Notes under the pieces: generated by a model
The model's input: only the letters and a program-made list of their open reading frames with translations
Databases searched by the model: none
What the model was told of the DNA's origin: nothing
Assembly (NCBI GenBank): GCA_000091205.1
Contig: AP006491.2
Reading direction: 5' to 3' (one strand)
DNA from: Cyanidioschyzon merolae
Lineage: Eukaryota
DNA: 64,000 nt
Position numbers and translations under genes: made by a program
In this document: positions 1,615 through 60,450 of the stretch, in pieces
Layout of the letters: the number at the start of each line of letters is the position of its first letter
How positions within the stretch are numbered: the stretch's first letter is position 1

Positions 1615-2652
1615 TCAGGGGCCTGAAAGTATCCAGATTCGAGCATGCGTGGCGGCTCGTGACTCTCGTAGACGACCAAGATGCCGAAAAACATTCATCA
1701 GCGCTCTGCCCGTAGTATCCTGCTTCAGTGATGCAAAGGACTTGATATCTGTCTCGGAGAAAAAGTAGTGCCCGCGAGTCTCGTCCGTTTCCATGTCCTC
1801 ATAGCGGCAGCGCTGATCAAGCTGCGCAGAAGTGAGCTCATGCTTTGGACGACGCAAAAGCGCATACTTATAACGCAAGATGCTCTCAATATCGCTGATC
1901 GCTCTATGCAGACGCTCTATGGTGACGCGTCCGCGTATGTGCCCCGGAACTTGCTGGAGCGTCTCCTCAGTCACTGGCTCGACGCGTGGAGCGGCGTCAA
2001 CCGCCGGCGCTGCTCGGGGAAACGAGTCTCGCTTCCGTGGAACAGGCGAGACACTGTCGTTTACCCTGCCAGTGGGTGCTCCTTCTGATCCAGGTGGCTG
2101 CTGCGCGCTCGGTGGTGAAGCGTCCTCCGTACCAGCGCAAGTGCGCCCGGCGCGTCGCCGCTGCTGGAGCGCCACCTGCAAACGACGCCACTGCTGCCGC
2201 TGCTCTCGTACTCGGCGACAAAGCTGCTTCATTTGTCCGGCATATCGCAAGTCCTCCTCTAGCGCCTCTTTCAGCCAGTAGAAGTGCGTCTCCGCTGCTT
2301 GGAGCTGCGCCTCGGTGGCGTACAAGTGCTCATCCAACGCTGGCACTGCCTCAGCTGAGCGCATCAGCGCCAACCACTTGAGAGTACGCACCCGCCGGAC
2401 AAGAGTCGCAGCATCGGCACCCAGTTGACTCCCAATACCGAGTAGTCGTTGCTCATCGGGATGACCCTCAACCGGGACCTCTGAGCGTTCCCCGCGAGTC
2501 GACAGCATATGCAAAAGGTCCGACACGCGCCAGGGATTTTGAATGTCGCGGCCGCAATGGACGGTGCTTTGTTCCAATGCCGCACACGTCGATGAAACAG
2601 TCGATGCTCCACGAGCACGCAGGGTATATGAATACCGACGTGCAGACGCCAA
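1615..2652 (-). CDS. SKA1: Spindle and kinetochore-associated protein 1 (SKA1)-like, with C-terminal microtubule-binding winged-helix region
   Basis: The 345-aa ORF has the C-terminal block IRGRVTIERLHRAISDIESILRYKYALLRRPKHELT...ETRGHYFFSETDIKSFASLKQDTTGRALMNVFRHLGRLRE. This aligns by eye to the human SKA1 C-terminus (MKSRLTYNQINDVIKEINKAVISKYKILHQPKK...DTKGRYFIVEADIKEFTTLKADKK...LNILRHCRRLSEVRGG). The N-terminal start is uncertain because the first ATG lies 6 bp from a transposon remnant. Confidence 0.6.
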   Translation of the reverse strand: MASARRYSYTLRARGASTVSSTCAALEQSTVHCGRDIQNPWRVSDLLHMLSTRGERSEVPVEGHPDEQRLLGIGSQLGADAATLVRRVRTLKWLALMRSAEAVPALDEHLYATEAQLQAAETHFYWLKEALEEDLRYAGQMKQLCRRVREQRQQWRRLQVALQQRRRAGRTCAGTEDASPPSAQQPPGSEGAPTGRVNDSVSPVPRKRDSFPRAAPAVDAAPRVEPVTEETLQQVPGHIRGRVTIERLHRAISDIESILRYKYALLRRPKHELTSAQLDQRCRYEDMETDETRGHYFFSETDIKSFASLKQDTTGRALMNVFRHLGRLRESRAATHARIWILSGP

Positions 2653-2657
2653 CCAGT

Positions 2658-2946
2658 CTATGTCGACCGGCCAGCTACTAGTAGCTCCAACTTCTCCTTA
2701 TACGCCTCGAGTATCAGAGGCTGCCCCATAAAGTTGGTTCGCGCCAGCTCCTCGGGTCTCTTCTCCAGCACTGCACATCCCCTGACATTGAAGGCGGCGT
2801 CGAAGTCCCGGTACACAAATACGATACGTTTCTTCCCGTTGTTTGCACTTACGAATGCAAGTAGGCCTCGATTTTGGGCGCTCCATTCCATTTGCTCCTA
2901 CGTCAGCGCTGCGAACTTTTCTACATGCGCAGGGCTCCGCTTGCAC
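2658..2946 (-). pseudogene. Fanzor/TnpB-like RuvC-III-containing C-terminal fragment (decayed copy a)
   Basis: The 77-aa ORF reads NNGKKRIVFVYRDFDAAFNVRGCAVLEKRPEELARTNFMGQPLILEAYKEKLELLVAGRST. It is colinear and clearly homologous with the C-terminus of the 298-aa ORF at 36367..37263 (NGKKRMEFVNRDFNAALNIRTCVVLQTRPPEWTRENFVGQPLKVELYEQKLEAVVGGRS). The D-x-N-A-A-x-N-[IV] motif is the TnpB/Cas12 RuvC-III signature. The DNA at 2870..3000 also aligns with 36760..36900. Confidence 0.6.
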
Positions 2947-3380
2947 TTCTCCGTCTCGACTTTCTGAGGTGTACGCCCCAGCTCATTCCTGATTTTCTTG
3001 AAACTGAATGTATTTGTTCAAGACTTTGGGTGAAGACCTCCCGAGAAAGAGAGAAGGGCTTGCGGAAGAGAGGCGAAATTTGCCCTGGTGTCTCATTGTG
3101 TGCTGAACGAATCAGCGGTTCGCCCAGTGGAGCGATCAGTACGTTTCACGATAGAGAACATTTCCTCGCAGAGGATGCGCCACGATGAGCATGTAGGAAT
3201 GAAAAGCATCTCTACCTCAATAGAATCGGTAAAGGCTCGAACGCAAGTGGAATGGTCAAATGCCAAGTTGTCCAATAGAAGGAACTTCGCCGGACGTCAG
3301 TGACAGGTCTTCAACGATTCGACAAAGCGGGTGGTGCTGTTGTACGGGCCTTCACTACGACCGAAACTAAGGCCGCAAAA

Positions 3381-34049: not shown

Positions 34050-36419
34050 TCAACGATTCTCGGCAGGTCCTTGACGCCGCATGTGGCGCTCGTAGTAGAA
34101 TTGCGCAAAGGTAGGCAGCACTCGAGAGGAGACCACGGATGAAAGCGAACCTCCAGGTTCCGGATGCGTACACGACGCACCCGATGCCTGGCGGAAGACC
34201 AGCGTTAGCTCATTTAGGAGCGTTTCGTAGCGGTAGCGAACACGAATAGATGGAACATTGGACTTGTGGATATCGTTCCCCTGGTCATTGGTGAGAAACC
34301 AGCGCGGTCCGAGCCAGTGCGCCTTCACACAGGGCTCGAAACCGCTCTGTAGCGCAGAGTTTCGCGCCAGTTCACAGAGATCCGAACTGCTCAGTTTCCA
34401 TATCTGAGCGGCTACCGAGTACTCTTCCATGAGCGGCTCGCGAGAGAAATGGAACATAAGTGGATCATCGGTGCTGAGGCTCACATTCAGCCCGCGTGCA
34501 ATAAACACTGGTACCGGTGACTTGGTGTAATCGACGAATAGCAGGTTATTGCCCAGCGGAGAGACAGCGAGACCCACTTGGCACAGGTAGTAGAGGTACT
34601 GCAGCACGGGTGCTTTTTTCAAGTTAATCCCGTGATTAATACCGTGCGCGAGGAGAAACGTCACTGCCAGGTGATCGATTTCGCCGGCTTCACCAGCATG
34701 TGGGCGGAATCGAAAGGTATGCAGGCCTCGATGCTCGCGAAACCTGTTCAAAACCCATAAATTAGCGTAGATGTAGTAGGTGAAGTATGCATAGGGCATC
34801 GGTGCTGAGGTACGCCACGCTAGCGGCGGTGGCAAGGTCAACAAGTCGATGCGTGGCTGCGGTACACTCTCGTCGTCAACGGTGTCGAAGCCTACAATCT
34901 GTTGCAGAACTGTGTGCAGCTCCGGATGCGTTGATGGATCTTGCGTGACCTCAAATAGCGGGAAGAAAATATTGTTCAACATTTCCTGAAAGGATTCCAG
35001 CAACCCTGCTTCGTGGTAGGCGCCGAACAAACGCGGAATCTGGATCAACCATCGGGCGTGATCCGAGTAGATTCGATGCTTGGTGAACCAGCGAGCAAGA
35101 CGATCCCACTCGCATCGTTTTTTGCCGTATATCGAGATTCGGGGCTCGATATGGGAGTACTTGCTCTCTACAAGATCATCGAGGACCTCGCGGGTGATTT
35201 CCGCCAGAAATCGGCCTTCGATAAAGTTGTCCGTTTTCAGAAACACTTCCCGAAGACGAGATTCTCCCAGCGGGGAATACTTGTTATTGAAGCGGTCAAA
35301 GCGCTGCACGGTACGCTTATCCGCGTGCACGTCGAGCGTGTCCACCGACAGCTCATACGCCGTGATGCCGAGGGAGTCGAACACCCCGGCCAGCGTCAGA
35401 ACGCGGCCATCGCGCTCAATCACTGGGGTGTTCGGCTCGGTCTTGAGTTTCTTCTTAATAAATCGGAGCAGGTGCTTCTGGTTCATACAGGAGCTGTGAT
35501 GAATATGCGTGTCAACCTTGCGGACATTATAAAAGTCTCGATGCGGCACTGTCATCTGCTCTAGCCGCTCTGCTTCATCGTTGAGTAGCAGATGCATTTG
35601 AAAGCGCAGAGAGAGTAGTTGCAGACGCCTGTAGCAGAACGAGCGGGAGTCGGGATCGTTCATGATCCCGATCAGCGTGTTCAGATCGTGCACGAAAAGC
35701 GCATAGGAGCCAGGAACAACGAACTTGCACGGTTCGCGGCTTGTCTCGGTTGCCGGTCTTGTGACCTCCATGATGCCATCACGAACTTCGAACGCGTAAT
35801 CGCCCTTCGCCAGGGCTGGCCCTCGAAAAGGATCATACGGTGGCGGGACGTGGATACTCAGGTCACAGTCGCGGTACGGAGGTGCCGGGTTCGCATACTC
35901 TGGGACTTCAGGTAGGTAGAGGTATTTCTCGCGGAGGGCGATAGCGTTTCGGAGCAGTGCACATACCCTGCGCTCGTCGGCGTTTAACTCGACCTCGTTC
36001 GTGATGAGTACTCGCTGAAAACCTCGCTCTGTAACCGCAGATCGGAGTGAGCGGAAGGCTTGCCCAAGTTCTCGCCGGAGTTCAAGCGTCTGTAACGCAG
36101 TCAGGGTCGCCTCGTCTACCGAGGCCGTGTTGTGCACGAGTTGGGTTCCGTCGCTACGGTCACCTGAAGTGGAGGCTTCTTGCGCTCGCAGAGGATCGGT
36201 AACAGGAACCAGCAGCGCGTCCCGTGCCCTCTCGTCGGAGCGCTCACCAGCTGCCACCGACGATTGAACTAGACGACGCCAGTGAGGAGACAGGGCGCGC
36301 TGTGCAAGAACCGGTTCGGCATCCTCCTGTTCAAGGTCATGAATCCAAACGAGCTTGCCACTATCTCTACCAAATGGTTCCATGAGCGTGCACGTGCTCC
36401 AGTTCCCCGACACCGTCAC
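34050..36419 (-). CDS. AMPD: AMP deaminase
   Basis: 789 aa. It has the metal-binding motif VDTHIHHSSCMNQKHLLRFIK, SLSTDDPLMFHFSREPLMEEYSVAAQIWKLSSSDLCELARNS, and a long central block colinear with AMPD/Amd1. Start is either Met1 (36419) or Met13 (36383); Met1 overlaps the tail of the Fanzor ORF. Confidence 0.9.
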   Translation of the reverse strand: MTVSGNWSTCTLMEPFGRDSGKLVWIHDLEQEDAEPVLAQRALSPHWRRLVQSSVAAGERSDERARDALLVPVTDPLRAQEASTSGDRSDGTQLVHNTASVDEATLTALQTLELRRELGQAFRSLRSAVTERGFQRVLITNEVELNADERRVCALLRNAIALREKYLYLPEVPEYANPAPPYRDCDLSIHVPPPYDPFRGPALAKGDYAFEVRDGIMEVTRPATETSREPCKFVVPGSYALFVHDLNTLIGIMNDPDSRSFCYRRLQLLSLRFQMHLLLNDEAERLEQMTVPHRDFYNVRKVDTHIHHSSCMNQKHLLRFIKKKLKTEPNTPVIERDGRVLTLAGVFDSLGITAYELSVDTLDVHADKRTVQRFDRFNNKYSPLGESRLREVFLKTDNFIEGRFLAEITREVLDDLVESKYSHIEPRISIYGKKRCEWDRLARWFTKHRIYSDHARWLIQIPRLFGAYHEAGLLESFQEMLNNIFFPLFEVTQDPSTHPELHTVLQQIVGFDTVDDESVPQPRIDLLTLPPPLAWRTSAPMPYAYFTYYIYANLWVLNRFREHRGLHTFRFRPHAGEAGEIDHLAVTFLLAHGINHGINLKKAPVLQYLYYLCQVGLAVSPLGNNLLFVDYTKSPVPVFIARGLNVSLSTDDPLMFHFSREPLMEEYSVAAQIWKLSSSDLCELARNSALQSGFEPCVKAHWLGPRWFLTNDQGNDIHKSNVPSIRVRYRYETLLNELTLVFRQASGASCTHPEPGGSLSSVVSSRVLPTFAQFYYERHMRRQGPAENR

Positions 36420-37263
36420 ACAACAAACGCCGGTCTAAAGTCGAATGTCGCCTGCACTGTACAGTACCGGCGAGAAATTCGCCCCGGACAAGACGTCTCC
36501 AAATTATTCGCGGACGCCTCCCCGTGGTTCTCGACCGGCCACCTACTACTGCTTCCAACTTTTGCTCATATAATTCCACTTTGAGAGGTTGCCCCACAAA
36601 ATTCTCTCTTGTCCACTCTGGAGGTCTAGTCTGCAGCACTACACATGTCCTTATATTGAGAGCTGCATTAAAGTCTCGGTTCACAAACTCCATGCGTTTC
36701 TTACCGTTGGTTGTTATGCTAACCAATGCAAGGAGTCCTCGAACTTGTGCCCTCCTTTCCATCTGCTCTTCCGTCAGCTGTCCGTACTTTTTTATATCCT
36801 CAGGGCTCCTCTGGCACTTTTCCATCTCGACCCTTTGAAGTGTGCACCCCAGTTCATGATGTGTATACGATGTCCGGAACTCATCTATGGGTATCGTAAC
36901 GAAACGTTGTGCGCACTCCTTGTACGTTCGTGTCGTTGGAGCTGGCGTAGTCCTTTTTTGGGTCTTCCAGCGCCCTGCTCTGTATGCTTCTACCAGCCTC
37001 TGACTTTCATCCTCCTTCAAAGCGTTCAACTGATTGAAAACGTTCGCGAACGCGCGCCGCTTCCCACAATACAGATTCATACGCAGACTAGCCCACCGGG
37101 GCTTTGTATACTCCTCCCACAGTGCATCCCAATGCGCAACGCGAGCTTCCATGAATTTCCGGAAAGCTTCAAAGTCCGCTCCGCGGACCGTCACCTCGCT
37201 CAAAGCTTCCAGGTGCTCCTTCACCCCTGCATTCCATCTCTCAACTTTCTTCCTTGCATTCAC
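36367..37263 (-). CDS. Fanzor/TnpB-like nuclease, C-terminal half (RuvC-II region, zinc finger, RuvC-III), the most intact copy (copy c)
   Basis: 298-aa ORF. The segment ...AQRFVTIPIDEFRTSYTHHELGCTLQRVEMEKCQ... follows the TnpB pattern G..V..V.E.YTS..C..CG (RuvC-II Glu followed by the zinc finger). NRDFNAALNIRTC is the RuvC-III D-x-N-A-A-x-N-I signature. By comparison with copy a, which stops after ...VAGRST, the native stop is probably near 36520, and the last 50 or so codons are fortuitous read-through. Confidence 0.7.
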   Translation of the reverse strand: MNARKKVERWNAGVKEHLEALSEVTVRGADFEAFRKFMEARVAHWDALWEEYTKPRWASLRMNLYCGKRRAFANVFNQLNALKEDESQRLVEAYRAGRWKTQKRTTPAPTTRTYKECAQRFVTIPIDEFRTSYTHHELGCTLQRVEMEKCQRSPEDIKKYGQLTEEQMERRAQVRGLLALVSITTNGKKRMEFVNRDFNAALNIRTCVVLQTRPPEWTRENFVGQPLKVELYEQKLEAVVGGRSRTTGRRPRIIWRRLVRGEFLAGTVQCRRHSTLDRRLLCDGVGELEHVHAHGTIW

Positions 37264-40000
37264 AATACCGGATTCTCGATAGCATCTCGATCTCGAGAAA
37301 TCTCAAAAGACGCATATCTTTCTGGCGCACGTTACCGTCAATGCCATCTTCCGCACGCTTCGGTTCAGCGACGGGTATGATATTCGTGTGTCCGGGGTCC
37401 GCGCCAATGACAACGTCGTTATCCTCTACCTCCTGCGCGGCAGGACCCGGCTCCTTCTCATCTTCTTGTTTCGCCGCACCAACGATAACGTCGTTATCCT
37501 CTACCTCCTGCGTCGCAGGATCCGCCACCTTTTTTTCTTCATGCTTCGCCGAAGCGCAACTGAGGACGGAACTGGACGATCCACCTTCAAGCGCCGATAG
37601 TGTACGCACATGGCTACTCCATCGGTTTCGATCATCCCAGTGAGTACCTTTTGGTTGCTCGTCTAGACACGTATGAAATCGAAGGTATTCGTCCAATGCA
37701 ATTCCCGGTTTTCGCCCGTTAACTCCTTATCGCTGACATCGAACTCCGGACTGATCTTCTCCATGATGCTGTAAAGGACTCCGGAGTCGATTGAGACAGA
37801 GTGCGGCTTGATGTTGCACAACGGAACGACGTTGAAGCGCTTACCCATTAGGAAAGCCTTCCGTTCCTCCAACCCCGTCATTTCGTTTCCTGACTCAGCT
37901 TCATCTCCGCATTGCGTTCGAGTTCTCGGTTCAGGAGCATGAAATAGCGCAGGATGAGGGATACCATTTTTTTCATCTTTTTTCGTATATGATACGTTTT
38001 CTGCTGGATTTGACAAGCCCCATGACTGCACGGTGCTCTTGAATAGCCGCACGGATCAAAGTAGCTTCATACTTTCTCCCGCGTGATATCTTCTTGACGA
38101 CGAATTCGATCTCCTGTCCATTCTGGCGATCGCTCGTGATGCCATTGATGATGGTCCATATCCCCTGGCGGGAGAGGCCCAGGTACGTTGCAAAAACGGC
38201 GCATATCATGAAGCGTTTGAGTTTCATGGTCATACGATTCTTCAGGTTCGTGAGGTACTTGATCGTCCCGTATGAGTTAATATCTGCGACACTCTTGTAT
38301 AGAGTACCGTCGAAGCGGTATTCGGGGTGATTTTCGTGGACGGCATGCACTCTCTCATTTCTCCTCGACGCTTCCCCTGTGCCAAGCATCAGGTGGCGAA
38401 TAAAAGTCTTGTTGAAAAATTCTCTCGGAACCTCGAATGTTTTGATGTCCGTCATATCGCGATACATCTCCCTCGCCATATGCATCAGTTCAGAAGAAGT
38501 CTTTATAATTCTCAAGGAGTACGACTCGACACGGTTTCTGATGGCCTCTCGTAACTTTTTTTGTATGGATCCTTGGTATACTTTAGAAGACAGGCTTTCG
38601 CTACCATCTCATCTTACTGTCGCCTTCGTGCAGCTCCTTCATCTTCGCCTGCTCCTCTGGACTCGGCAATGTTTTTCGTTTTTCTCTGGCAGCTGGCGAC
38701 ACCGACCCTTCGAAATCCTCCACTTCCATATCAATGACTTGCTTATATTTTTTGGAAAAGAACGCACTATGAACGCTTCTGCTGGAAAGCGCGAAAACCC
38801 ACTGAGCACACTAAACTGAGGTTTGAAAAACGATCGGATTCAAAGACTATACTTTGCTATGACTTGAACGCGAATACATCTTGGACGCTATCGTAACACG
38901 CTGATGCCGCGATGCCATGCCGTTTTCGTGCATGCGACAAGTCCCCGGCAACAGTGCACGCTCCGAATGCCGCATCGCGTGTTTCCAGTCAAGTCTACGA
39001 ATAAGAAGGATGGCGCTTCCATTCGACGGCTACATGCGCTTCTTGTCTCATTTTTTGTCTGACAAACCGTTTACATTTACCATGGATCCTAGATTGCGGG
39101 ATGGGTATTGGCTTTCGGGAAAGTGTCCATCATGCTGTACCCTACGTCAAATGTCTATGACCTGTTCTCGGATATACTGGTTATTTCGCACATTCTGTTG
39201 TGCGCCGACTACCTGCTCCGAGCGCCGCCCCCTGCAGCGCGCACACTGCTGGTACGGATGCAGTATGGAAGCAGCACGGCTTTGGGATGCCGCTGAGCGC
39301 GTCAGCTCGAAGCGCTGTTCACCTACAACGGGGTCGGAGTGCATAATCATTCTGGGAGCCTGCAAACCGCGCAGGTAGAGCTTCTGCGTGCGGCAATGCG
39401 ATGCGATATACTAGGAGTCCAGTGCAACCGGGGCGACGCCCAGACGCAGCCTACCTGCCCCTAGTCCCAGAGTGAATTGCGTTGCGGACGAGCTGCACAG
39501 ATGTCACTACAGCACCCGCCACTGCAGAGGAATACGGAGCAAAAACTCCGGTGGACTCGTCCAGCTCGCGGGATCTTCCGCCTAGAAAATAATCTTTTGA
39601 AAAAACGGAAAGTTTTCCCCCTTTCGAACGCTGACGATGCAGTTCGAACGAAATTGTTATCAAGTTGCTATTTCATGGTTGGTTTCTATCCCTTTTTCCA
39701 TAGCGCGGTCGATACCCGAACTTGGGATCGCCTCGGCATGCGAACGGTGGCATCGGGAACCGCTGGCCTGTGTAGACATTTTGTCAAATAAAAAACACAA
39801 ACGCTCCCTGGATCCTTCGAAATCCAATTCCCGATACAAATACTTGTTCGACTGCGGTGCATTGCAGTACTTGCTTGCAAGGAGCATTCGTTACTTTCCG
39901 AGACGCTTCCAGTAACCGCGCGACCGGTGATTCTGGTAAGGTGCATCGGGTGCTGACCCTGAATACCCGGACCCCCGCGCGAATGGCCAGGTGCTGGCAG
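36420..40000 (-). mobile_element. Fanzor-bearing transposon (copy c), lower-GC island; boundaries approximate
   Basis: GC content drops visibly between about 36500 and 40500. Consecutive minus-strand ORFs in shifted frames (37241..37696, 37663..38052, 37973..38515) lie upstream of the RuvC ORF, indicating introns or decay of the N-terminal half. It carries modules repeated elsewhere in the window: 39330..39800 matches 47860..48290, and 39050..39140 matches 60330..60440 (reverse complement). It also has a tandem peptide repeat, QEVEDNDV(I/V)(V/I)GA. Confidence 0.5.
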
Positions 40001-40825
40001 CTCGACGTCCGCCGCTCCGAATGGCGGAGCTCTCACAGGCACTGGACAAGCGTCTGCGTTTAGGATACGGTCTGGGGGAATCGCCTGCCTCGAGAGGCCT
40101 GGAAGATGGACTCTACCATGTCAGCTGGACCCGCCAAGTCTCTTCGCTGCCCTTGTACGACCAAAGCGATTGATGTTCTGCCTAGCGAAGACGTGCTTAC
40201 AACCTAAAGTTTGTGTGTCGCTTCCCAGCGTTATCAACCTCAGTCTATATGAGGTGTTGATACAACTGTCTGCTTTTCTTCCCCATTATCTCCGAATTGA
40301 ACTATGTCGATCTCTCCGTTCCATCAAGTTCCGCTCTTAGCAGTCGACGTATGTTATAGGCAGCGTTCAAGTTCCGATTTAGCTGCTTCCGGCTGTTGCG
40401 CACGAATATCATTCCCATACGCTAGTTCCGAAACCTCGGCTTGAACGCTGCCATCAACAGAAACCGACTGCTTCAACCGGAGCTGCAAGGACAGGCCAAG
40501 GCATTGTGTTCAAAGCCGGATTTAACAGAGAAGGAAAAGAGGCAGCCGCAGGAAAATCTTTCAAACGCTTGTGCCAAGAAAGACGTCTGGCGCAACCGCA
40601 TGCAGTTCTCGTGAGTGCACTCGCCGATCGCTCAGTGGATCCGTTCCACTTTGATACTGGCATGGGTGCATTGAAATAAAATGAGACAATGCACACCTAG
40701 CAGCTGCAATCGCGATCGCCAGTCGATGCCCTGGTGAACGCCGTCGTGAGCAGGTCTCGCGAATACTGTATGTAATTGGAACATATGGACATGAGCATAC
40801 CCGAGAGGCTGCGCTCCCGTCGGGT

Positions 40826-43651
40826 TTGTGTTGCCGAACTTCGACTGGCTCGCGCTGGCGCTTTAGCCGGGCAGACGCACCTATGCGTTTGGCAGTTCTA
40901 GGCTTGCCCTCACCGAGCTTTGGAATGGAACTGGAACTCGCTTTTGTCTCTAATATACTTGGAACGGCGAGAGTAGGGAGTTTTCTAGGCAAAGACGCGA
41001 AGGACGCGCTCCTTCTGAATAGCCGGCGGTGGGTTCCGCACGCGAAGCGGTTTCGTTTAGGTCGGCGCACCGCGCTAAGCCTAGAGAGCAAAGGCAAGAA
41101 GCACCACGATAACACTGGTGCCTTTACTTCAGGATCCGCTCGTCGGGAGCTTAGTGGTCTAGCGGCAACGAGCGACGGAGGCTCATCTGGTTCTTCGTTC
41201 GTCAGCGAGGAAGAAGTTGAGGTGTTGGAAGGGTTCGAAGACCTGCTCCTAACGTCCAACAAGAAGAAAGTGACTCCGAAAACAAAACCAGCACCCACCT
41301 CTGATGCAAAGGCCCAAGCTTCTGTTAATGGGTTTGAGGTCCTCGAAGGATTCGAAGACCTTTTCACGGAGCCGAAGAAGGGGAAAAAAGGCAAAAAATC
41401 AAAGGCACAAGCTTCAACCGTGACTTCGGCGTTGCGCGCTGCAGCACCAAATGAAGGCTCAGTGAAAGCGTCGCATTCTGAAAACGCAGAGCACGGGATA
41501 GCAGCTCCGGCGGACCCTCAACGCAACGGAAAGTTAACTGCTACTACTGGTGAGACCGTGCACTCTCTTGAGAGGGAAACTCAGCGACCCGCTGCAGCCA
41601 CGGAAGAATCGAAACAAGCTTCCAGGACCGTTGCTACGGGCGACTCGCCCCCGCTGGAGACAGTGCTGGACGCGGGCTCGGAGGAATCCTCGGAGCAGGT
41701 TCCGGAAGATGATGTGAGCTCCGGAAACAATGCTCGCCAGAAGCGCCAGTCCCAGAGCACCTCAACTGCCGCGGGGCGCGCCGCCCTCAACCTCAGGGCC
41801 GACGCCGGTGATGACATCACGGCCGAGTCAGTGTTCCTTCGTCTGGAGGATGTTAGTGTGTCATATCGGGGAGAGGTCGTTGTGAAAAAGGCAGAACTTG
41901 ACATTCGCATGGGCGATCGTATTGCTATTGTGGGAAAGAACGGTTCAGGGAAAACGTCTCTTTTGCGCATCCTGGCTGGACTGCAAGAGCCGACAAAAGG
42001 CGAGGTTGTGCGCTCGCCCGCAGGCCTGCGTGTGGGTTACCTGCGTCAAGAGTTCCATGACGACCTGAATCCGACGCGAACGCTACGTGAGGAACTCTCC
42101 TCTGCTCTGACGGAGGCAAATGCGGCACTCGCCCGATATCACGAGCTGGAGAACCAAGTCGCCAGCGTTGCGCACGATCCCGATCGCCTCGGTGCGCTTC
42201 TGGAAGAGCTAGAGCGTGCCCGCATAGAATGCGAGCGGGTTGGTGCTTTCAACATAGATATGAAAGTGGATCGCGTAATGGCCGCTCTGGGCTTCGTCTC
42301 CGGGGATGATCCCGAGAAGCTGGTTGCATCTTACTCCGGTGGATGGAAAATGCGCATAGGCCTCGGCAAAGTGCTTCTCCATGAGCCGCACGTGCTGCTT
42401 CTCGACGAACCGAGCAACCATCTTGATGTAGATTCTGTGGAGTGGTTGGAAAACTACCTCTGCTCGCTCCCGATTCCCTTAGTGATTGTGTCGCATGACC
42501 GAGAATTCATCGACCGTGTATGCAACAAAGTGGTCGAGATGGAGCGAGGTGAAACTGTGAAGTACGTCGGTAACTATACGAGCTTCCTGAAACAGAAAAA
42601 AGAGCGTATAGCTGCATGGCAAGCCGCGTATGAACGCCAGATGAAGTACATCGAAGAGCAAAAGGCGTTTATCAACCGCTTCAAGAACAATGCTGCAAGG
42701 GCATCGCAAGTCAAGAGCCGTGAGAAAGCACTCGAGAAATTCATGGCCGCGGAGAAGTTCGTGTCGCCACCGCCAGGCAACGAAAAAATGCTTCGTTTCC
42801 GCTTTCCATCGGCGCCACGTTCGGCTCGCGATTTGGTTTCGCTTCGCTCGGTCACCATGCGCTACGGGGACCGTACGCTCTTCCGTAATGTCGACTTTAC
42901 GATTGAGCGGGGAGATCGCATCGCCGTTGTGGGCCCGAACGGCAGCGGCAAGTCGACGTTGCTTCGGCTGATCTGCGGGATAGAGGCTCCGACAGAAGGC
43001 GAGGTGGCGATCGCCGAGTACGGTACCAAGATCGCATACTTTGAGCAGAATCAGGCAGATGCACTGGATATGAACCTGACGATCCTTGAAACAATGCAGC
43101 GAGCCGCGCCGGCAAACATGCCCTACGAGCAGATTCGTGCGCTTCTCGGACGATTTCTGTTCAAAGGCGATGCAGTGGAGAAGAAAGTTGGTTCACTGAG
43201 TGGCGGCGAAAAAGCGCGCCTGGCGCTTTGTAAGATCCTGCTCGAGCCGGCGAATCTGCTCGTTCTCGATGAGCCAGGCAACCATGTGGACATTGAGGGT
43301 CGCGAGTGCCTCGAGGAGGCTCTCCAGGAATACGACGGTACGCTCGTTATCGTGAGCCATGACCGCTACCTTGTGTCTCAGGTGGCCACGAGTGTCATTG
43401 CCATTGAAAATGGCAAACTGGAGTTTTATGATGGTGATTATCGCTTCTACTGTGAACAGCACCTGGAGTTGCGCCAGCGACTTCGCGAGCGCGCCATCGC
43501 CGGTGTGACCGACATCAAGTCGGCGCCAGTGGAGGCCATGGCGCGGGCGGGTGACGGTCAGTTGCACGAAGAACGCAAGAAGACTTTTGGCGGATCTGGT
43601 GTGAAGAACAAGAAAGACAGCATGATGAACTCAAAGCGCTGGAATGACTAA
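40826..43651 (+). CDS. ABCF: ABC-F family ATPase with two ABC domains and no transmembrane domain, plus a long low-complexity N-terminal extension
   Basis: 941 aa. Two Walker A sites are present (GKNGSGKTSLLRILAG and GPNGSGKSTLLRLICG). Two signature motifs are present (LSGGWKMRIGLGKVLL and LSGGEKARLALCKILL). Walker B and H-loop are also present. The linker between cassettes is typical of ABCF/EttA/Uup-like proteins. The N-terminal 330 or so aa are Ser/Lys-rich with a duplicated VLEGFEDL motif. Confidence 0.85.
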   Translation: MCCRTSTGSRWRFSRADAPMRLAVLGLPSPSFGMELELAFVSNILGTARVGSFLGKDAKDALLLNSRRWVPHAKRFRLGRRTALSLESKGKKHHDNTGAFTSGSARRELSGLAATSDGGSSGSSFVSEEEVEVLEGFEDLLLTSNKKKVTPKTKPAPTSDAKAQASVNGFEVLEGFEDLFTEPKKGKKGKKSKAQASTVTSALRAAAPNEGSVKASHSENAEHGIAAPADPQRNGKLTATTGETVHSLERETQRPAAATEESKQASRTVATGDSPPLETVLDAGSEESSEQVPEDDVSSGNNARQKRQSQSTSTAAGRAALNLRADAGDDITAESVFLRLEDVSVSYRGEVVVKKAELDIRMGDRIAIVGKNGSGKTSLLRILAGLQEPTKGEVVRSPAGLRVGYLRQEFHDDLNPTRTLREELSSALTEANAALARYHELENQVASVAHDPDRLGALLEELERARIECERVGAFNIDMKVDRVMAALGFVSGDDPEKLVASYSGGWKMRIGLGKVLLHEPHVLLLDEPSNHLDVDSVEWLENYLCSLPIPLVIVSHDREFIDRVCNKVVEMERGETVKYVGNYTSFLKQKKERIAAWQAAYERQMKYIEEQKAFINRFKNNAARASQVKSREKALEKFMAAEKFVSPPPGNEKMLRFRFPSAPRSARDLVSLRSVTMRYGDRTLFRNVDFTIERGDRIAVVGPNGSGKSTLLRLICGIEAPTEGEVAIAEYGTKIAYFEQNQADALDMNLTILETMQRAAPANMPYEQIRALLGRFLFKGDAVEKKVGSLSGGEKARLALCKILLEPANLLVLDEPGNHVDIEGRECLEEALQEYDGTLVIVSHDRYLVSQVATSVIAIENGKLEFYDGDYRFYCEQHLELRQRLRERAIAGVTDIKSAPVEAMARAGDGQLHEERKKTFGGSGVKNKKDSMMNSKRWND

Positions 43652-47301: not shown

Positions 47302-47859
47302 GTCGAACGCGAGTTCAGGTCACTCCCTGAAGTGGGCAGTATACAGAACTCCAAAAATACCGGCCACTGTGGTTGCACGCGGTTACGCTACTCCCGCTCC
47401 ACTCTACTACCAAAGCGCAAAGCCAACTACTCTTCAGTCTTGACTTGCTTCTCAAGTAACGTCAGTGCACCGTGCCTTGCGCTTGTCCAGGGAACGTACC
47501 AAGCTCTCGCAGAAGTGTATCGCCCGTTGGGCTCGTGGCAGGAGCGCGCACGCGCACACGGCATCGATGTTTTTCCGATGACCAAATTCGTGTCCATGGA
47601 CCAGGGATCCCAGATTGTGAGATGGGTATTCGTAATTGAAAAAGCGTCCATGATGATGCACTTTACCTTCAAGTTCCATTCCTTGGCCTTCAGCTCGGAT
47701 ATACTGGTCGTTTTGTAGGTTATATTGTGTGTCAAGTGCATGCCTTGGAGCATCCACAACAGAGCCGAAACCGCTGGAGCAGATATTTCATAGAGGCAGG
47801 ACCGGATTTGCCACACCATTGACTACTTCGACTCGGGGCTTGGATCATCCGACACAGGG

Positions 47860-49960
47860 TCGGTATACACGATCATTCTGGGAGCCTGCAAATTTCGCAG
47901 ACAGACCTACTGTGTCCGACTGCGCGAAGCGATATACTACAAGTCCACTGCGACCAGGGCGATGCCCAGACGCAACATCGGCGCTCCGAGTCCCAGAATA
48001 CACTGCGTTGCGGCCGAGTTGGTCAGATCTCACTAACGCAACAGCCACAGGAGAGAGCACGAAGCACCAGCCCGGCAGACTTGTCCGGTTCGCGGGATCT
48101 TCCACCTCTAAGGTAAAGTTTCGACAAAAAGGAAACCATTTCCCCTTCTTCATGTTTGCCGTAGAGGGGCAAAGAACTCGTTCTATCGTTGCTCGTTCGT
48201 GGATAGTTTCTGATCTTTTTTCTGTGCAGTGCGGTCGATATGCGCACCTGGGAGATCTAGCACGCTCGAGGCACGACGCGCATCGACAAGTGCCACTGGC
48301 GGTGCGGCTTCATTCCATGCGCGCGTGCTGCACCGAGTTACTGGTATCGATGACCCGAGTTCGATTCTTTCATACGACACGACACGTCATCCTCTGAGGC
48401 GTACGGGGGTTTCACGCCAGCTTCCCTTTGCATCAAGGCAAGGTCAGGTGCGTATATTGTGATTCTTTCTAAATCGTATCAGGGCAGATGCACGGTGCCT
48501 GCTCCATTTTTTCACATGCAGATGGTTACCGCATCTTGAAACGGACACGTCCAAGTTTTCCAAGTGGCGTCCATACGCCCGCAATTTCGAGCGAGCAGCG
48601 AACGAACCCGCCACGGCAAGCGCTCTGGTACCACCCGCTCGATTCAGCGGTATCCAGACCAGAGCGATTCGGAGTTGAACGACAAAGACCTAGACATCAA
48701 GGCGCATCCCATAGAATAGTGTCAGATGAATATGGAACACTGAGTTGCTCGCTCCTTTCCTGAATTTCGCTCATTATCCGAAGATTTTCAGATGTTCTGC
48801 CTCGGCATTTGAATAGTTTCAAGAACGGCTTGCGCATTCATATGTAGTTCTTGGATTCTCGGTCGTTTGCACGGGGCAGGTCCAACGAAGCAACGCAGCT
48901 GGAATGAATTACCTTGCCGGAATCAAAATGCTTCGCGACGCCCTCAGACAAGCATTGGTAAAATAACCGATATCATCATCCAATTCATACGTACAAGAAT
49001 CCGCGCTTCTTTCCTGACGTGAAGCATGTTAGGGCCATGCATGCTTCAAGTTTTCCGACTCTCTATTTCACGACAACTCATGGGCGGAGCCATTTGCGCC
49101 CCCGAATGAACGACGAAAAATCACAGTCGGTGTCATCTCTCGACGACTTGTTCATGAATGCATGTTGGAAGGTCACTGAACGTTTCATAGCAAATAATCG
49201 ATTCTATTCGAAGCACAAACCTTCCTCTCCTTGTGGCCGACGACGGAATGGCATTCGAGCGCAGCAGCTTTATACCGGTCACATGAGATGCCTCCACATG
49301 CCCCCGTCGGTTCTGTTTGCGTGGAAAAGAGTTGCATCCTCGGACTTTAGTGATCGCAGCGATCGCTTCTATTTTAGGGTGCGTCAACGAGTCGCGAGTG
49401 GAGAGCTTAGACGGTTCAAATTTCTGGATTTGATCTTAAGCCAGGATTTTCCTTCCGGTACTTGATTCGTCATGAACAACATCGCGTTCCACAAATCCTC
49501 TACCGAATGGGCGAGCGTTCACTTGCGTGTGCAGCGGACTGGGTACTCGCCGACGGGATTGCCCAGAGGAAGCCCGCGTTCGTCGGGCACGACACCGGGT
49601 GCGGAATCCGAAGAAGCCACTGAGCTTAGCCTTCTGTGCCCGTCAAGGGCATGTACCGGGCGATGATGCAAGCGTTTGCGTGCCACAAGACGGCGCTCGG
49701 ACGAGCAGCTCTGCTGGCGGTCTCCAGGAACACGTGACAGCGGTCAAAAGTCACTTCTGCGATGCGAGAACCGATACTGTATAGAATAAAACGAGGAAAT
49801 GAGCACATCAAGCATAGATTGCAGCTTCCATCAGTTTGTGCAATGCACCGACAGCTGCCGAAAGTTGCAAACCGGGACCTGAACGCTGTCATCAATATTC
49901 TTCGGCTGCTGGAACGTACTCGGAGGCAAAGGGGAGACAGACGAACGCAAAGCCCTTGAC
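47860..49960 (+). mobile_element. Degenerate Fanzor-bearing transposon remnant (copy d); boundaries approximate
   Basis: 47860..48290 is homologous to 39330..39800. The shared stretches are cattctgggagcctgcaaa, gcgatatactac, cagggcgatgcccagacgcaac and tcccagaatacactgcgttgcggccgag. 48800..49560 is homologous to 18900..19650. The 49019..49465 ORF holds a decayed zinc-finger region (QQLYTGHMRC, compared with EFRTSYTHHELGC). The 49762..49959 ORF holds NRDLNAVINILRL, the RuvC-III motif. A lower-GC island. Confidence 0.5.
49762..49959 (+). pseudogene. Fanzor/TnpB-like RuvC-III fragment of copy d
   Basis: The 65-aa ORF contains KVANRDLNAVINILRLLERT, the third independent occurrence in this window of the D-x-N-A-A-x-N-I motif. 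The upstream protein context is missing. Confidence 0.5.
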
Positions 49961-60249: not shown

Positions 60250-60450
60250 CCCAGTTACGCTCACGTCCCCAGTACCGAGCTACCTGTGGAACGTCCAACG
60301 TTCCAAGCATTTCTGTGAGGAAGTATAGATGGTTGCCGGTGGACCTTGACGGTGGGATGAGATATGATTGACGCTTTCCCGAAACTCAACACCCACCCGT
60401 CTCGCAAGCTGGGATCCATGGTCCATGGAAACGTTTTTTCATCGGAAAAA
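60250..60450 (-). mobile_element. Short fragment of the same transposon family (copy e)
   Basis: The reverse complement of 60330..60440 (cgtttccatggaccatggatcccagcttgcgagacgggtgggtgttgagtttcgggaaagcgtcaatcat) aligns with 39050..39140 of copy c (cgtttacatttaccatggatcctagattgcgggatgggtattggctttcgggaaagtgtccatcat). The encoded peptides are FPWTMDPSLRDGWVLSFGK and FTFTMDPRLRDGYWLSGK. Confidence 0.45.

What the first reader, a model, noticed from the sequence alone, without database searches (positions are those of the whole stretch)
36367..40000. Candidate eukaryotic TnpB-like (Fanzor) RNA-guided nuclease on a lower-GC transposon inserted about 100 bp upstream of AMP deaminase
The 298-aa minus-strand ORF carries, in the right order and spacing, the C-terminal catalytic signature of TnpB/Cas12-type RuvC nucleases. 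There is a conserved acidic residue before an (E/D)xxTS..C..C zinc finger (IDEFRTSYTHHELGC...KC). After it comes the RuvC-III motif NRDFNAALNI. All flanking genes are unambiguously eukaryotic, so this is a Fanzor-type protein, not a bacterial IS element. Its N-terminal half is spread over three consecutive ORFs in shifted frames (37241..38515), which fits either spliceosomal introns, as seen in many Fanzors, or early decay. The element forms a sharply lower-GC island. It also contains a plus-strand ORF (38917..39378) whose peptide recurs at 60330, so it may encode a second protein. If the RuvC ORF is intact after splicing, this is a candidate programmable nuclease from an uncharacterised family.
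Basis: partly seen in the sequence, partly recalled or inferred. Interest (0 to 1): 0.82.

Follow-up and report, generated by a model that had tools for sequence, protein, structure and literature searches.

The report
Decayed copy of known Fanzor1 transposon
This is a broken, non-functional copy of CMe-1A, a Fanzor1 (eukaryotic TnpB-like nuclease) transposable element already described in 2013 in this same red alga, Cyanidioschyzon merolae, so the Fanzor call is right but the find is ordinary.

Summary
A diverse profile of the family hits only solved Fanzor1 structures (E=7.6e-20, 2.6e-11, 2.2e-5). A high-confidence AlphaFold model of a full-length relative matches Fanzor1 folds (TM 0.62/0.73).

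The family is not uncharacterised. The window is Cyanidioschyzon merolae 10D: its AMP deaminase is 777/777 identical to that strain's protein. The element is a copy of CMe-1A, the roughly 150-copy, 3.2-kb, TIR-less Fanzor1 element published by Bao & Jurka in 2013. Their consensus protein aligns to 38735..36502 at 76.6% identity.

This copy is dead. It has 7 frameshifts and 2 in-frame stops, with no intervening DNA, so the shifted ORFs reflect decay and not introns.

The proposed second protein (38917..39378) is not a gene. It lies in an inverted copy of TE-N2_CMe, the known noncoding 5' module of CMe-1A, which recurs at 47576..48212 and as a fragment at 60364..60444.

At family level the protein is under purifying selection (dN/dS about 0.2). 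A conserved noncoding 3' tail of about 100 nt with three stem-loops ends at the element boundary, 37-43 bp upstream of the AMP deaminase ATG. It is a plausible but unproven guide-RNA scaffold.

The parts
36420..38950 (-). Gene unit of a CMe-1A-family Fanzor1 transposable element. It is a decayed copy of about 2.5 kb with no terminal inverted repeats and no transposase gene.
   Evidence: blastn against 80 related loci: similarity starts abruptly at 36420-36426 and runs to about 38882-38916. The 5' alignment suggests weak similarity extends to about 38950-39000, so the 5' limit is approximate. No TIRs were found. It matches the published CMe-1 consensus.
36502..38735 (-). Fanzor1 (CMe-1) pseudogene. 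It aligns to the published 734-aa single-exon consensus at 76.6% amino-acid identity. It is interrupted by frameshifts at 38633, 38562, 38020, 37974, 37886, 37563 and 37300, and by in-frame stops at 38616-38614 and 37665-37663.
   Evidence: Frameshift-aware protein-to-DNA alignment, three-frame translation, tblastn frame switches.
37376..37405 (-). RuvC-I motif GADPGHTNII, containing the catalytic Asp.
   Evidence: The column is invariant in the 47-member diverse alignment (D421 of P0122). It aligns to the DPGR/DPNK/DPGK motifs of solved Fanzor1 structures.
36967..36987 (-). Canonical RuvC-II strand, AYRAGRW (family consensus VVAYGAGRW), with no glutamate. This is the Fanzor-type rearranged active site.
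   Evidence: PMC10530073 states that all Fanzors lack the canonical RuvC-II Glu.
36868..36888 (-). IDEFRTS motif carrying the alternative catalytic Glu, about 37 residues downstream of the canonical RuvC-II position.
   Evidence: The Glu is invariant in the diverse alignment (E592). It aligns to DEFRTS / DEYKTS / PEHYTS of PpFz1 / SpuFz1 / GtFz1. The alternative Glu is described in PMC10530073.
36652..36681 (-). RuvC-III motif NRDFNAALNI, containing the catalytic Asp.
   Evidence: R657, D658, N660, A662 and N664 are invariant. There is a marginal Pfam PF07282 hit at this position (E=0.2).
37399..37551 (-). A 75-bp x 2 tandem repeat encoding an acidic 25-aa unit (about AKHEEKKxADPATQEVEDNDVxxG) immediately N-terminal to the RuvC-I strand. 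Unit copy number varies from 1 to about 7 among relatives.
   Evidence: TRF, protein alignment, self-hit in blastn.
36420..36530 (-). Conserved 3' tail with three predicted stem-loops, overlapping the last codons of the family ORF and mostly noncoding. It ends at the element boundary and is a candidate omega-RNA (fRNA) scaffold / right end. The window copy's terminal hairpin is degraded (CGACATTCGA-CTTT-AGACCGGCG).
   Evidence: 50-copy alignment A4. alifold on the trimmed tail gives 3 helices. 85.3% of cells pair, against 32-65% in slid registers; 1-6 of 500 shuffles reach the observed covariation measures. Support is modest. There is no Rfam match.
39060..39687 (+). Copy of TE-N2_CMe, which is the 5' 635-bp module of CMe-1A. 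It is 78% identical to the published consensus. It lies in inverted orientation relative to the Fanzor gene when compared with the CMe-1A consensus.
   Evidence: blastn with the published CMe-1A 5' sequence, orientation analysis against 30 loci, ORF not conserved and no codon periodicity, no Pfam hit.
47576..48212 (+). Solo TE-N2_CMe copy, 78% identical to the consensus, with no adjacent Fanzor gene.
60364..60444 (-). 81-bp fragment of the 5' end of TE-N2_CMe (83% identity).
2637..3014 (-). More diverged fragment of the same Fanzor1 family, covering about 127 C-terminal residues (RuvC-II region to RuvC-III) at 52-58% amino-acid and 72% DNA identity.
   Evidence: tblastn, blastn.
34050..36383 (-). 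Host AMP deaminase gene, not part of the element. Its ATG lies 37-43 bp downstream of the element's 3' end on the same strand.
   Evidence: Pfam AMP_deaminase E=4e-248. 777/777 identical to C. merolae 10D XP_005536290.1.

Best explanation
Window 36420..~38950 (minus strand) is an old, inactivated copy of CMe-1A. CMe-1A is the Fanzor1-encoding, transposase-less, TIR-less transposable element of Cyanidioschyzon merolae.

At family level the element encodes a single-exon protein of about 734 aa with the TnpB/Cas12-type split RuvC domain in its Fanzor form. The parts are a RuvC-I Asp (DPG), no Glu at the canonical RuvC-II strand, a compensating Glu in the DEFRTS motif, and a RuvC-III Asp (NRDxNAAxNI).

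By homology with characterised Fanzor1 enzymes, an intact protein would bind a guide RNA transcribed from the conserved 3' end of its own element and cut matching DNA. This step is inferred and was not shown here.

The copy in the window cannot make that protein. Its reading frame is broken by 7 frameshifts and 2 stop codons. What remains is a relic, sitting 37-43 bp upstream of the AMP deaminase start codon and in the same orientation. Next to it lies an inverted copy of the short noncoding TE-N2_CMe element.
For: Family identity:
- The window ORF has 204 or more close homologues.
- An exhaustive HMMER search with the subfamily profile finds 1,331 cluster representatives.
- A 47-member diverse profile hits only Fanzor1 chains in the PDB: PpFz1 7.6e-20, SpuFz1 2.6e-11, GtFz1 2.2e-5.
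- The subfamily profile matches the diverse profile with hhalign probability 100%, E=8e-75.
- The AF2 model (pLDDT 85.3) gives Fanzor1 structures as its top 7 Foldseek hits, E about 1e-16, TM 0.62/0.73.
- The catalytic D/E/D columns are invariant.

Known element:
- The host is C. merolae 10D.
- The published CMe-1 protein and the CMe-1A 5' DNA align directly to the window.
- Copy number, roughly 80% identity, about 3 kb length, absence of TIRs and the TE-N2 module all match the paper.

Pseudogene:
- 7 frameshifts and 2 stops.
- Relatives read straight through these positions.

Family-level function:
- dN/dS is 0.20 among 21 uninterrupted C-terminal halves.
- The 3' tail is conserved and contains stem-loops.
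Against: - No single-sequence Pfam, NCBIfam or PDB hit reaches significance for the window ORF itself. The assignment rests on transitive profile and fold evidence plus the direct match to the published consensus.
- Covariation in the 3' tail is only modest. RNAalifold on the full alignment predicts nothing, so the guide-RNA role is unproven.
- No biochemical data exist for CMe-1 in the papers I searched.
- The clade lacks the C4 zinc finger that is part of the original Fanzor/TnpB motif definition, so activity of intact copies cannot be assumed.
Confidence: 0.93

Rival explanations
1. The gene is intact, and the shifted ORFs are exons joined by spliceosomal introns.
For: Many Fanzor genes in other eukaryotes do contain introns (PMC10530073). 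The ORFs are consecutive and lie on one strand.
Against: - At every junction the homologous protein sequence continues without a gap in a different frame, so there is no intervening DNA to splice out.
- Two breaks are plain nonsense codons inside conserved sequence (38616-38614 and 37665-37663).
- Other copies and the published consensus are single uninterrupted ORFs ('734 (1)' exon).
Confidence: 0.01
2. The frameshifts are sequencing or assembly errors, and the copy is actually intact and active.
For: Repeats are error-prone in assemblies. Metagenome contigs of the same strain break inside this element, so they offer no independent check of the interior.
Against: - The flanking host genes are long and uninterrupted. 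The AMP deaminase is 100% identical to the reference protein.
- Nine independent disruptions fall within 2.2 kb.
- The copy is also about 23% diverged at the protein level from the consensus, as expected for an old decaying copy.
- The paper reports that most copies are only about 80% identical to the consensus.
Confidence: 0.03
3. The RuvC-like motifs are a chance resemblance, and the protein family is something other than TnpB/Fanzor. Pfam calls part of it DUF8286.
For: The single-sequence searches are non-significant: PF07282 E=0.2, and nothing in the PDB. The shallow profile also found nothing. The zinc finger is absent.
Against: - Profile hits go exclusively to three independent Fanzor1 structures, at up to E=7.6e-20.
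- The whole-length fold matches at TM 0.62-0.73, with Cas12 families next in the list.
- The catalytic columns are invariant.
- The family was already classified as Fanzor1 by its discoverers.
Confidence: 0.01
4. The relic has been co-opted. Its 3' end, 37-43 bp upstream of the ATG and in the same orientation, now supplies promoter or 5'-UTR sequence for AMP deaminase, or it still yields a guide-like RNA used in trans by intact CMe-1 proteins.
For: - Position and orientation fit.
- The insertion is present in all same-strain contigs found.
- It is absent from the orthologous locus of a sister lineage.
- The 3' tail is conserved across the family.
Against: - There are no expression data.
- The compact C. 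merolae genome forces repeats into short intergenic regions, so proximity alone is expected.
- The window copy's terminal hairpin is degraded relative to the consensus.
Confidence: 0.1

Closest known systems
CMe-1A / CMe-1 Fanzor1 element of Cyanidioschyzon merolae (Bao & Jurka 2013, Mobile DNA 4:12; PMC3627910)
   Same: - Same genome.
- The published protein consensus aligns over 717 codons at 76.6% identity.
- The published 5' 635-bp module matches 39060..39687 at 78%.
- No TIRs, and about 2.5 kb of gene unit.
- The copy's roughly 77-78% identity to the consensus (76.6% protein, 78% for the 5' module) is in line with the roughly 80% the paper reports for copies.
- Solo TE-N2_CMe copies lie nearby.
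   Different: - This copy is a pseudogene with 7 frameshifts and 2 stops.
- Its 5' TE-N2-like module is inverted relative to the consensus arrangement, so it is either an independent TE-N2 insertion beside a 5'-truncated CMe-1A or a local inversion.
- It has one extra 25-aa acidic repeat unit.
Structurally and biochemically characterised Fanzor1 nucleases: SpuFz1 (8GKH), PpFz1 (9CF0), GtFz1 (9CER)
   Same: - Same overall fold for a full-length family member (TM 0.62/0.73).
- Same order of RuvC-I, alternative-Glu (DEFRTS) and RuvC-III motifs.
- Rearranged active site lacking the canonical RuvC-II Glu.
   Different: - Only 12-15% sequence identity.
- The CMe-1 clade lacks the Cys-rich zinc finger in the TNB region: 0-3 Cys against 4-6, and 0 of 37 members with two CxxC.
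- It carries a variable acidic tandem repeat before RuvC-I.
- No guide RNA or activity has been demonstrated.
Prokaryotic TnpB (IS200/IS605, IS607) and Cas12f
   Same: Split RuvC nuclease with a guide RNA encoded at the 3' end of the element. Weak PF07282 (Cas12f1-like TNB) hits occur at the RuvC-III region. Cas12f, Cas12o and CasPhi appear as distant fold hits.
   Different: - Eukaryotic nuclear host.
- About 730 aa against about 400 aa.
- Rearranged catalytic Glu.
- No TnpA partner.
- No HTH or OrfB_IS605 Pfam hits.

Membership tests
Fanzor1 (eukaryotic TnpB homologues) | Significant sequence-profile similarity to established Fanzor1 proteins | tested here: met
   The diverse family profile A3 hits PpFz1 at 7.6e-20, SpuFz1 at 2.6e-11 and GtFz1 at 2.2e-5, with no other PDB family. 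The window subfamily matches A3 with hhalign probability 100%, E=8e-75. The single sequence alone is not significant.
Fanzor1 (eukaryotic TnpB homologues) | Fanzor1 / TnpB-Cas12 fold (WED-REC-RuvC-TNB) over the full length | tested here: met
   An AF2 model of the full-length relative P0122 (pLDDT 85.3, pTM 0.83) gives SpuFz, GtFz and PpFz as its top 7 Foldseek PDB hits (E about 1e-16, TM 0.51-0.73), followed by Cas12o, Cas12f and CasPhi. This was tested on a relative about 50% identical, not on the broken window copy.
Fanzor1 (eukaryotic TnpB homologues) | RuvC-I Asp, and RuvC-III Asp within an RD motif | tested here: met
   GADPGHTNII at 37405..37376 and NRDFNAALNI at 36681..36652. Both Asp columns are invariant in 47 diverse members.
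Fanzor1 (eukaryotic TnpB homologues) | Rearranged RuvC-II: canonical Glu lost, alternative conserved Glu about 45 residues downstream (PMC10530073) | tested here: met
   The canonical strand VVAYGAGRW (window AYRAGRW) has no Glu. An invariant Glu sits in DEFRTS about 37 residues later and aligns with the same motif in three solved Fanzor1s.
Fanzor1 (eukaryotic TnpB homologues) | C4 zinc finger between the [TS][TS] motif and RD (motif of Bao & Jurka 2013) | tested here: not met
   The window segment has 2 Cys, 2 His and no CxxC. Across 37 diverse clade members, none has two CxxC, and Cys counts are 0-3. Solved Fanzor1s have 4-6 Cys. The discoverers nevertheless classed CMe-1 as Fanzor1, so the feature is degenerate in this clade rather than excluding it.
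Fanzor1 (eukaryotic TnpB homologues) | RNA-guided DNA endonuclease activity with an omega/fRNA from the element's 3' end | not testable with these tools
   Only indirect evidence is available: a conserved noncoding 3' tail of about 100 nt with 3 stem-loops and modest covariation support, and no Rfam family.
CMe-1A transposable element family (C. merolae) | Direct sequence match to the published CMe-1 protein and CMe-1A DNA consensus | tested here: met
   The protein consensus aligns to 38735..36502 at 76.6% identity. The 5' 630 nt match 39060..39687 and 47576..48212 at 78%. Only the first 630 aa and first 630 nt of the published sequences were available in the excerpt.
CMe-1A transposable element family (C. 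merolae) | Host genome is Cyanidioschyzon merolae | tested here: met
   The adjacent AMP deaminase is 777/777 identical to XP_005536290.1 of strain 10D.
CMe-1A transposable element family (C. merolae) | About 3.17-kb element: 5' 635-bp TE-N2-like module in the same orientation as the Fanzor ORF, no TIRs | tested here: inconclusive
   No TIRs, and a gene unit of about 2.5 kb is present. The adjacent TE-N2-like module is inverted relative to the consensus arrangement seen in about 30 related loci. This copy is therefore rearranged or 5'-truncated.
Functional protein-coding gene | Uninterrupted reading frame | tested here: not met
   7 frameshifts and 2 in-frame stops.

The most novel reading that the evidence does not exclude
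The CMe-1-type lineage (at least 1,331 clusters at 50% identity) may be a distinct Fanzor1 clade that lacks the zinc finger. Its intact members, including some in thermoacidophilic Cyanidiophyceae, could be active RNA-guided nucleases. They would use the conserved three-stem-loop 3' tail defined here as their guide scaffold, and tolerate a variable acidic repeat inserted next to RuvC-I. This particular window copy would still be dead.
Probability: 0.3. Interest if true: 0.4.

Novelty: already known. Interest (0 to 1): 0.12.

Why it matters
It matters little as a discovery. Both the family (Fanzor1) and this specific element family (CMe-1A in C. merolae) were published in 2013, Fanzor1 nucleases have been characterised biochemically and structurally since 2023, and the copy here is a pseudogene.

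Some points are of modest value:
- It shows that a motif-only reading correctly recognised a Fanzor where single-sequence Pfam and PDB searches fail.
- It gives exact coordinates of the decay events.
- It identifies a candidate guide-RNA tail for the CMe-1 family.
- It records that the whole CMe-1-like clade lacks the canonical zinc finger and carries a copy-number-variable acidic repeat.

If intact copies from these heat- and acid-adapted algae were active, they could be of some interest as genome-editing enzymes.

Tried and rejected
- Single-sequence Pfam and NCBIfam scans of the four ORFs gave only PF07282 at E=0.2.
- phmmer of the 298-aa ORF against the PDB found nothing.
- A shallow profile (A1, members about 75% identical) against the PDB found nothing relevant.
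- AlphaFold on P0036 with the shallow alignment gave pLDDT 39.6. It was unusable, so no fold search was run on it.
- Pfam on long close relatives found nothing. PF26935 turned out to be DUF8286, which is absent from the local Pfam copy.
- RNAalifold on the whole 295-column 3' alignment predicted 0 pairs. Only the trimmed tail gave a structure.
- Rfam on the whole window gave 0 hits.
- A search for TIRs at the element ends found none.
- I tested whether segment 39060..39727 and a downstream inverted copy form long terminal repeats of a larger transposon. This was rejected, because host genes (SNF2 helicase, ATP synthase beta) lie between them in L012.
- I looked for an empty site. Same-strain contigs all break inside the element, and the sister-lineage locus is rearranged, so no precise empty site or TSD was obtained.
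- The exact-sequence lookup of the window ORF in the contig index found nothing on record.

Full report
**Observation.** The minus-strand ORFs exist as described: 36367..37263 (298 aa), 37241..37696, 37663..38052 and 37973..38515. The region is moderately GC-poorer than its flanks, at 0.47-0.53 against 0.55-0.60. The ORF downstream on the same strand is an AMP deaminase (Pfam E=4e-248).

**First tests of the Fanzor idea were weak.** Pfam gave only a sub-threshold hit of the 298-aa ORF to PF07282 (Cas12f1-like TNB; E=0.2, 11 residues over NRDFNAALNI). NCBIfam and a single-sequence PDB search gave nothing. A homology search found 204 or more close relatives at 54-92% identity, all unnamed metagenome proteins, some tagged DUF8286. 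A profile built from these shallow relatives again found nothing in the PDB. AlphaFold on that alignment failed, with pLDDT 39.6.

**Deeper search established the family.**
- I trimmed 17 relatives to the span from RuvC-I to the C-terminus and ran an exhaustive HMMER search. It found 1,331 cluster representatives at E<=1e-3, many of them 600-700 aa long.
- A 47-member alignment of these (27-44% identity) hit only Fanzor1 chains when searched against the PDB: Parasitella parasitica Fanzor1 (E=7.6e-20), Spizellomyces punctatus Fanzor1 (2.6e-11) and Guillardia theta Fanzor1 (2.2e-5). The DPG(R), DEFRTS and NRDxNAAxNI motifs were aligned.
- The window's subfamily profile matches this diverse profile at 100% probability, E=8e-75.
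- AlphaFold on the diverse alignment gave a confident model (pLDDT 85.3, pTM 0.83). Its top seven Foldseek PDB hits are all Fanzor1 structures (E about 1e-16, TM up to 0.62/0.73). Cas12o, Cas12f and CasPhi follow far behind.
- The RuvC-I Asp, the Glu of DEFRTS and the RuvC-III Asp are invariant across the 47 sequences.
- The literature states that all Fanzors lack the canonical RuvC-II Glu and use an alternative Glu about 45 residues downstream (PMC10530073). Here the canonical strand reads VVAYGAGRW and the invariant Glu lies about 37 residues later.

**The copy in the window is a pseudogene, not a spliced gene.**
- Relatives read straight through the points where the window's ORFs break.
- tblastn shows frame switches with no intervening DNA, and the three-frame translation shows the same.
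- A frameshift-aware alignment of the published consensus protein to the window covers 38735..36502 (717 codons, 76.6% identity). It has seven frameshifts (38633, 38562, 38020, 37974, 37886, 37563, 37300) and two in-frame stops (38616-38614, 37665-37663).
- All three catalytic motifs are still recognisable: 37405..37376, 36888..36868 and 36681..36652.

**Extent and ends of the element.**
- blastn against 80 related loci shows similarity beginning abruptly at 36420-36426 and running to about 38880-38916. Weaker similarity continues a little further.
- There are no terminal inverted repeats, and no shared sequence beyond the element in other loci.
- Only one of the 80 loci retains a near full-length ORF (722 aa, L008).
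- Among 21 copies with uninterrupted C-terminal halves the median dN/dS is 0.20. The family's protein has therefore been under purifying selection.

**3' tail.**
- Conservation continues for about 100 nt past the usual stop and ends at the element boundary.
- On the trimmed tail, alifold predicts three stem-loops.
- 85.3% of cells pair, against 32-65% in slid registers. Only 1-6 of 500 shuffles reach the observed covariation measures.
- Some subfamilies replace the terminal hairpin with unrelated perfect palindromes.
- This fits the 3' noncoding guide-RNA region described for Fanzors. The support is modest, however: RNAalifold on the full alignment gives nothing and Rfam has no match.

**The 'second protein'.**
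- The plus-strand ORF 38917..39378 overlaps a 630-670-bp dispersed repeat (39060..39727). This repeat recurs at 47589..48253 and, as a fragment, at 60364..60441.
- In 15 of 18 other copies the ORF's frame contains stops, and in the remaining three the segment length is not a multiple of three. Variability is flat across codon positions, at 0.19 / 0.19 / 0.17.
- It has no Pfam hit. It is not a conserved gene.

**Host and prior knowledge.**
- The AMP deaminase is 777/777 identical to C. merolae 10D XP_005536290.1.
- Bao & Jurka (2013, PMC3627910) described CMe-1A in this genome. It has about 150 copies, each about 80% identical to a consensus of about 3 kb (3,169 bp), no TIRs, undetermined TSDs and a single-exon 734-aa Fanzor1. 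Some copies are intact. Its 5' 635 bp is 95% identical to a separate element of about 70 copies, TE-N2_CMe.
- The published CMe-1 protein and the CMe-1A 5' DNA, taken from the paper's supplementary files, align directly to the window. The protein matches 38726..36799, and the 5' module matches 39060..39687 and 47576..48212 at 78%, and 60364..60444 at 83%.
- In the window the TE-N2-like module is inverted relative to the gene when compared with the consensus and with about 30 metagenome loci.

**Context.**
- Same-strain metagenome contigs (99.4-99.5% identical) all break inside the element's 3' end.
- A sister lineage (74% DNA identity) has a rearranged locus without the element.
- The element's 3' end lies 37-43 bp upstream of the AMP deaminase ATG (36383), on the same strand.

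**Deviations worth noting.**
- The CMe-1-like clade lacks the C4 zinc finger of the original Fanzor/TnpB motif. None of 37 diverse members has two CxxC and Cys counts are 0-3, whereas solved Fanzor1s have 4-6 Cys.
- A 75-bp tandem repeat (37399..37551, two units here) encodes an acidic 25-aa unit just before the RuvC-I strand. The number of units ranges from one to about seven among relatives.

**Verdict.** The Fanzor assignment is correct, but the element is a decayed copy of an already published family in its type genome. The intron and second-protein suggestions are refuted. Novelty: already known. Interest: low.

Noticed in passing
window 39060..39687 (+), relative to the gene at 38735..36502 (-): The TE-N2_CMe-like module next to the Fanzor pseudogene is in the opposite orientation to its position in the CMe-1A consensus and in about 30 related loci. 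It is either an independent TE-N2 insertion beside a 5'-truncated CMe-1A or a local inversion.
   Followed up: partly
window 47576..48212 (+) and 60364..60444 (-): A solo TE-N2_CMe copy (78% identical to the consensus) and an 81-bp 5' fragment (83%), neither with an adjacent Fanzor gene. A 17-nt imperfect inverted repeat (47548-47564 / 48312-48328) brackets the solo copy and may be chance.
   Followed up: partly
window 2637..3014 (-): A second, more diverged fragment of the same Fanzor1 family. It covers about 127 C-terminal residues at 52-58% amino-acid and 72% DNA identity to the main copy.
   Followed up: no
window 37399..37551 (-); alignment A1 columns about 240-390: A 75-bp tandem repeat encodes an acidic 25-aa unit immediately N-terminal to the RuvC-I beta-strand. 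The window has 2 units, the published consensus has 1, and hot-spring relatives have up to about 7. The repeat includes the NDFVVG strand sequence itself.
   Followed up: partly
window 36868..36700 (-), the TNB region; alignment A3: The whole CMe-1-like clade lacks the C4 zinc finger that is part of the original Fanzor/TnpB motif. The C. merolae subfamily has H-H-x3-C...C instead, and most diverse members have 0-2 Cys there.
   Followed up: partly
A4 columns 223-265; e.g. L059:2201-2456, L025:8043-8298: The terminal 3' hairpin of the element is replaced in some subfamilies by unrelated but perfectly palindromic GC-rich sequences. Two common variants form hairpins in registers shifted by one base. 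This suggests selection for a hairpin rather than for a particular sequence.
   Followed up: partly
loci L002-L081 (JGI metagenomes Ga0078972, Ga0080006, Ga0207433, Ga0123519 and others): At least 384 related stretches occur in a handful of metagenomes. Only 1 of the best 80 loci keeps a near full-length ORF (L008 3351..5519, 722 aa).
   Followed up: partly
L088-L090 (sister lineage, 74% DNA identity) versus window 36383..40826: In the sister lineage a thioredoxin gene and an Iso_dh gene lie between the divergent ABC-F and AMP deaminase genes. In the window that interval holds only the CMe-1A relic, the TE-N2 copy and unassigned sequence at 39730..40825.
   Followed up: no
window 36367..36501 (-): The 298-aa ORF runs past the family's usual stop, through the conserved noncoding tail and 17 nt into the AMP deaminase coding region. 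This tail of the ORF is read-through and is not conserved protein.
   Followed up: yes
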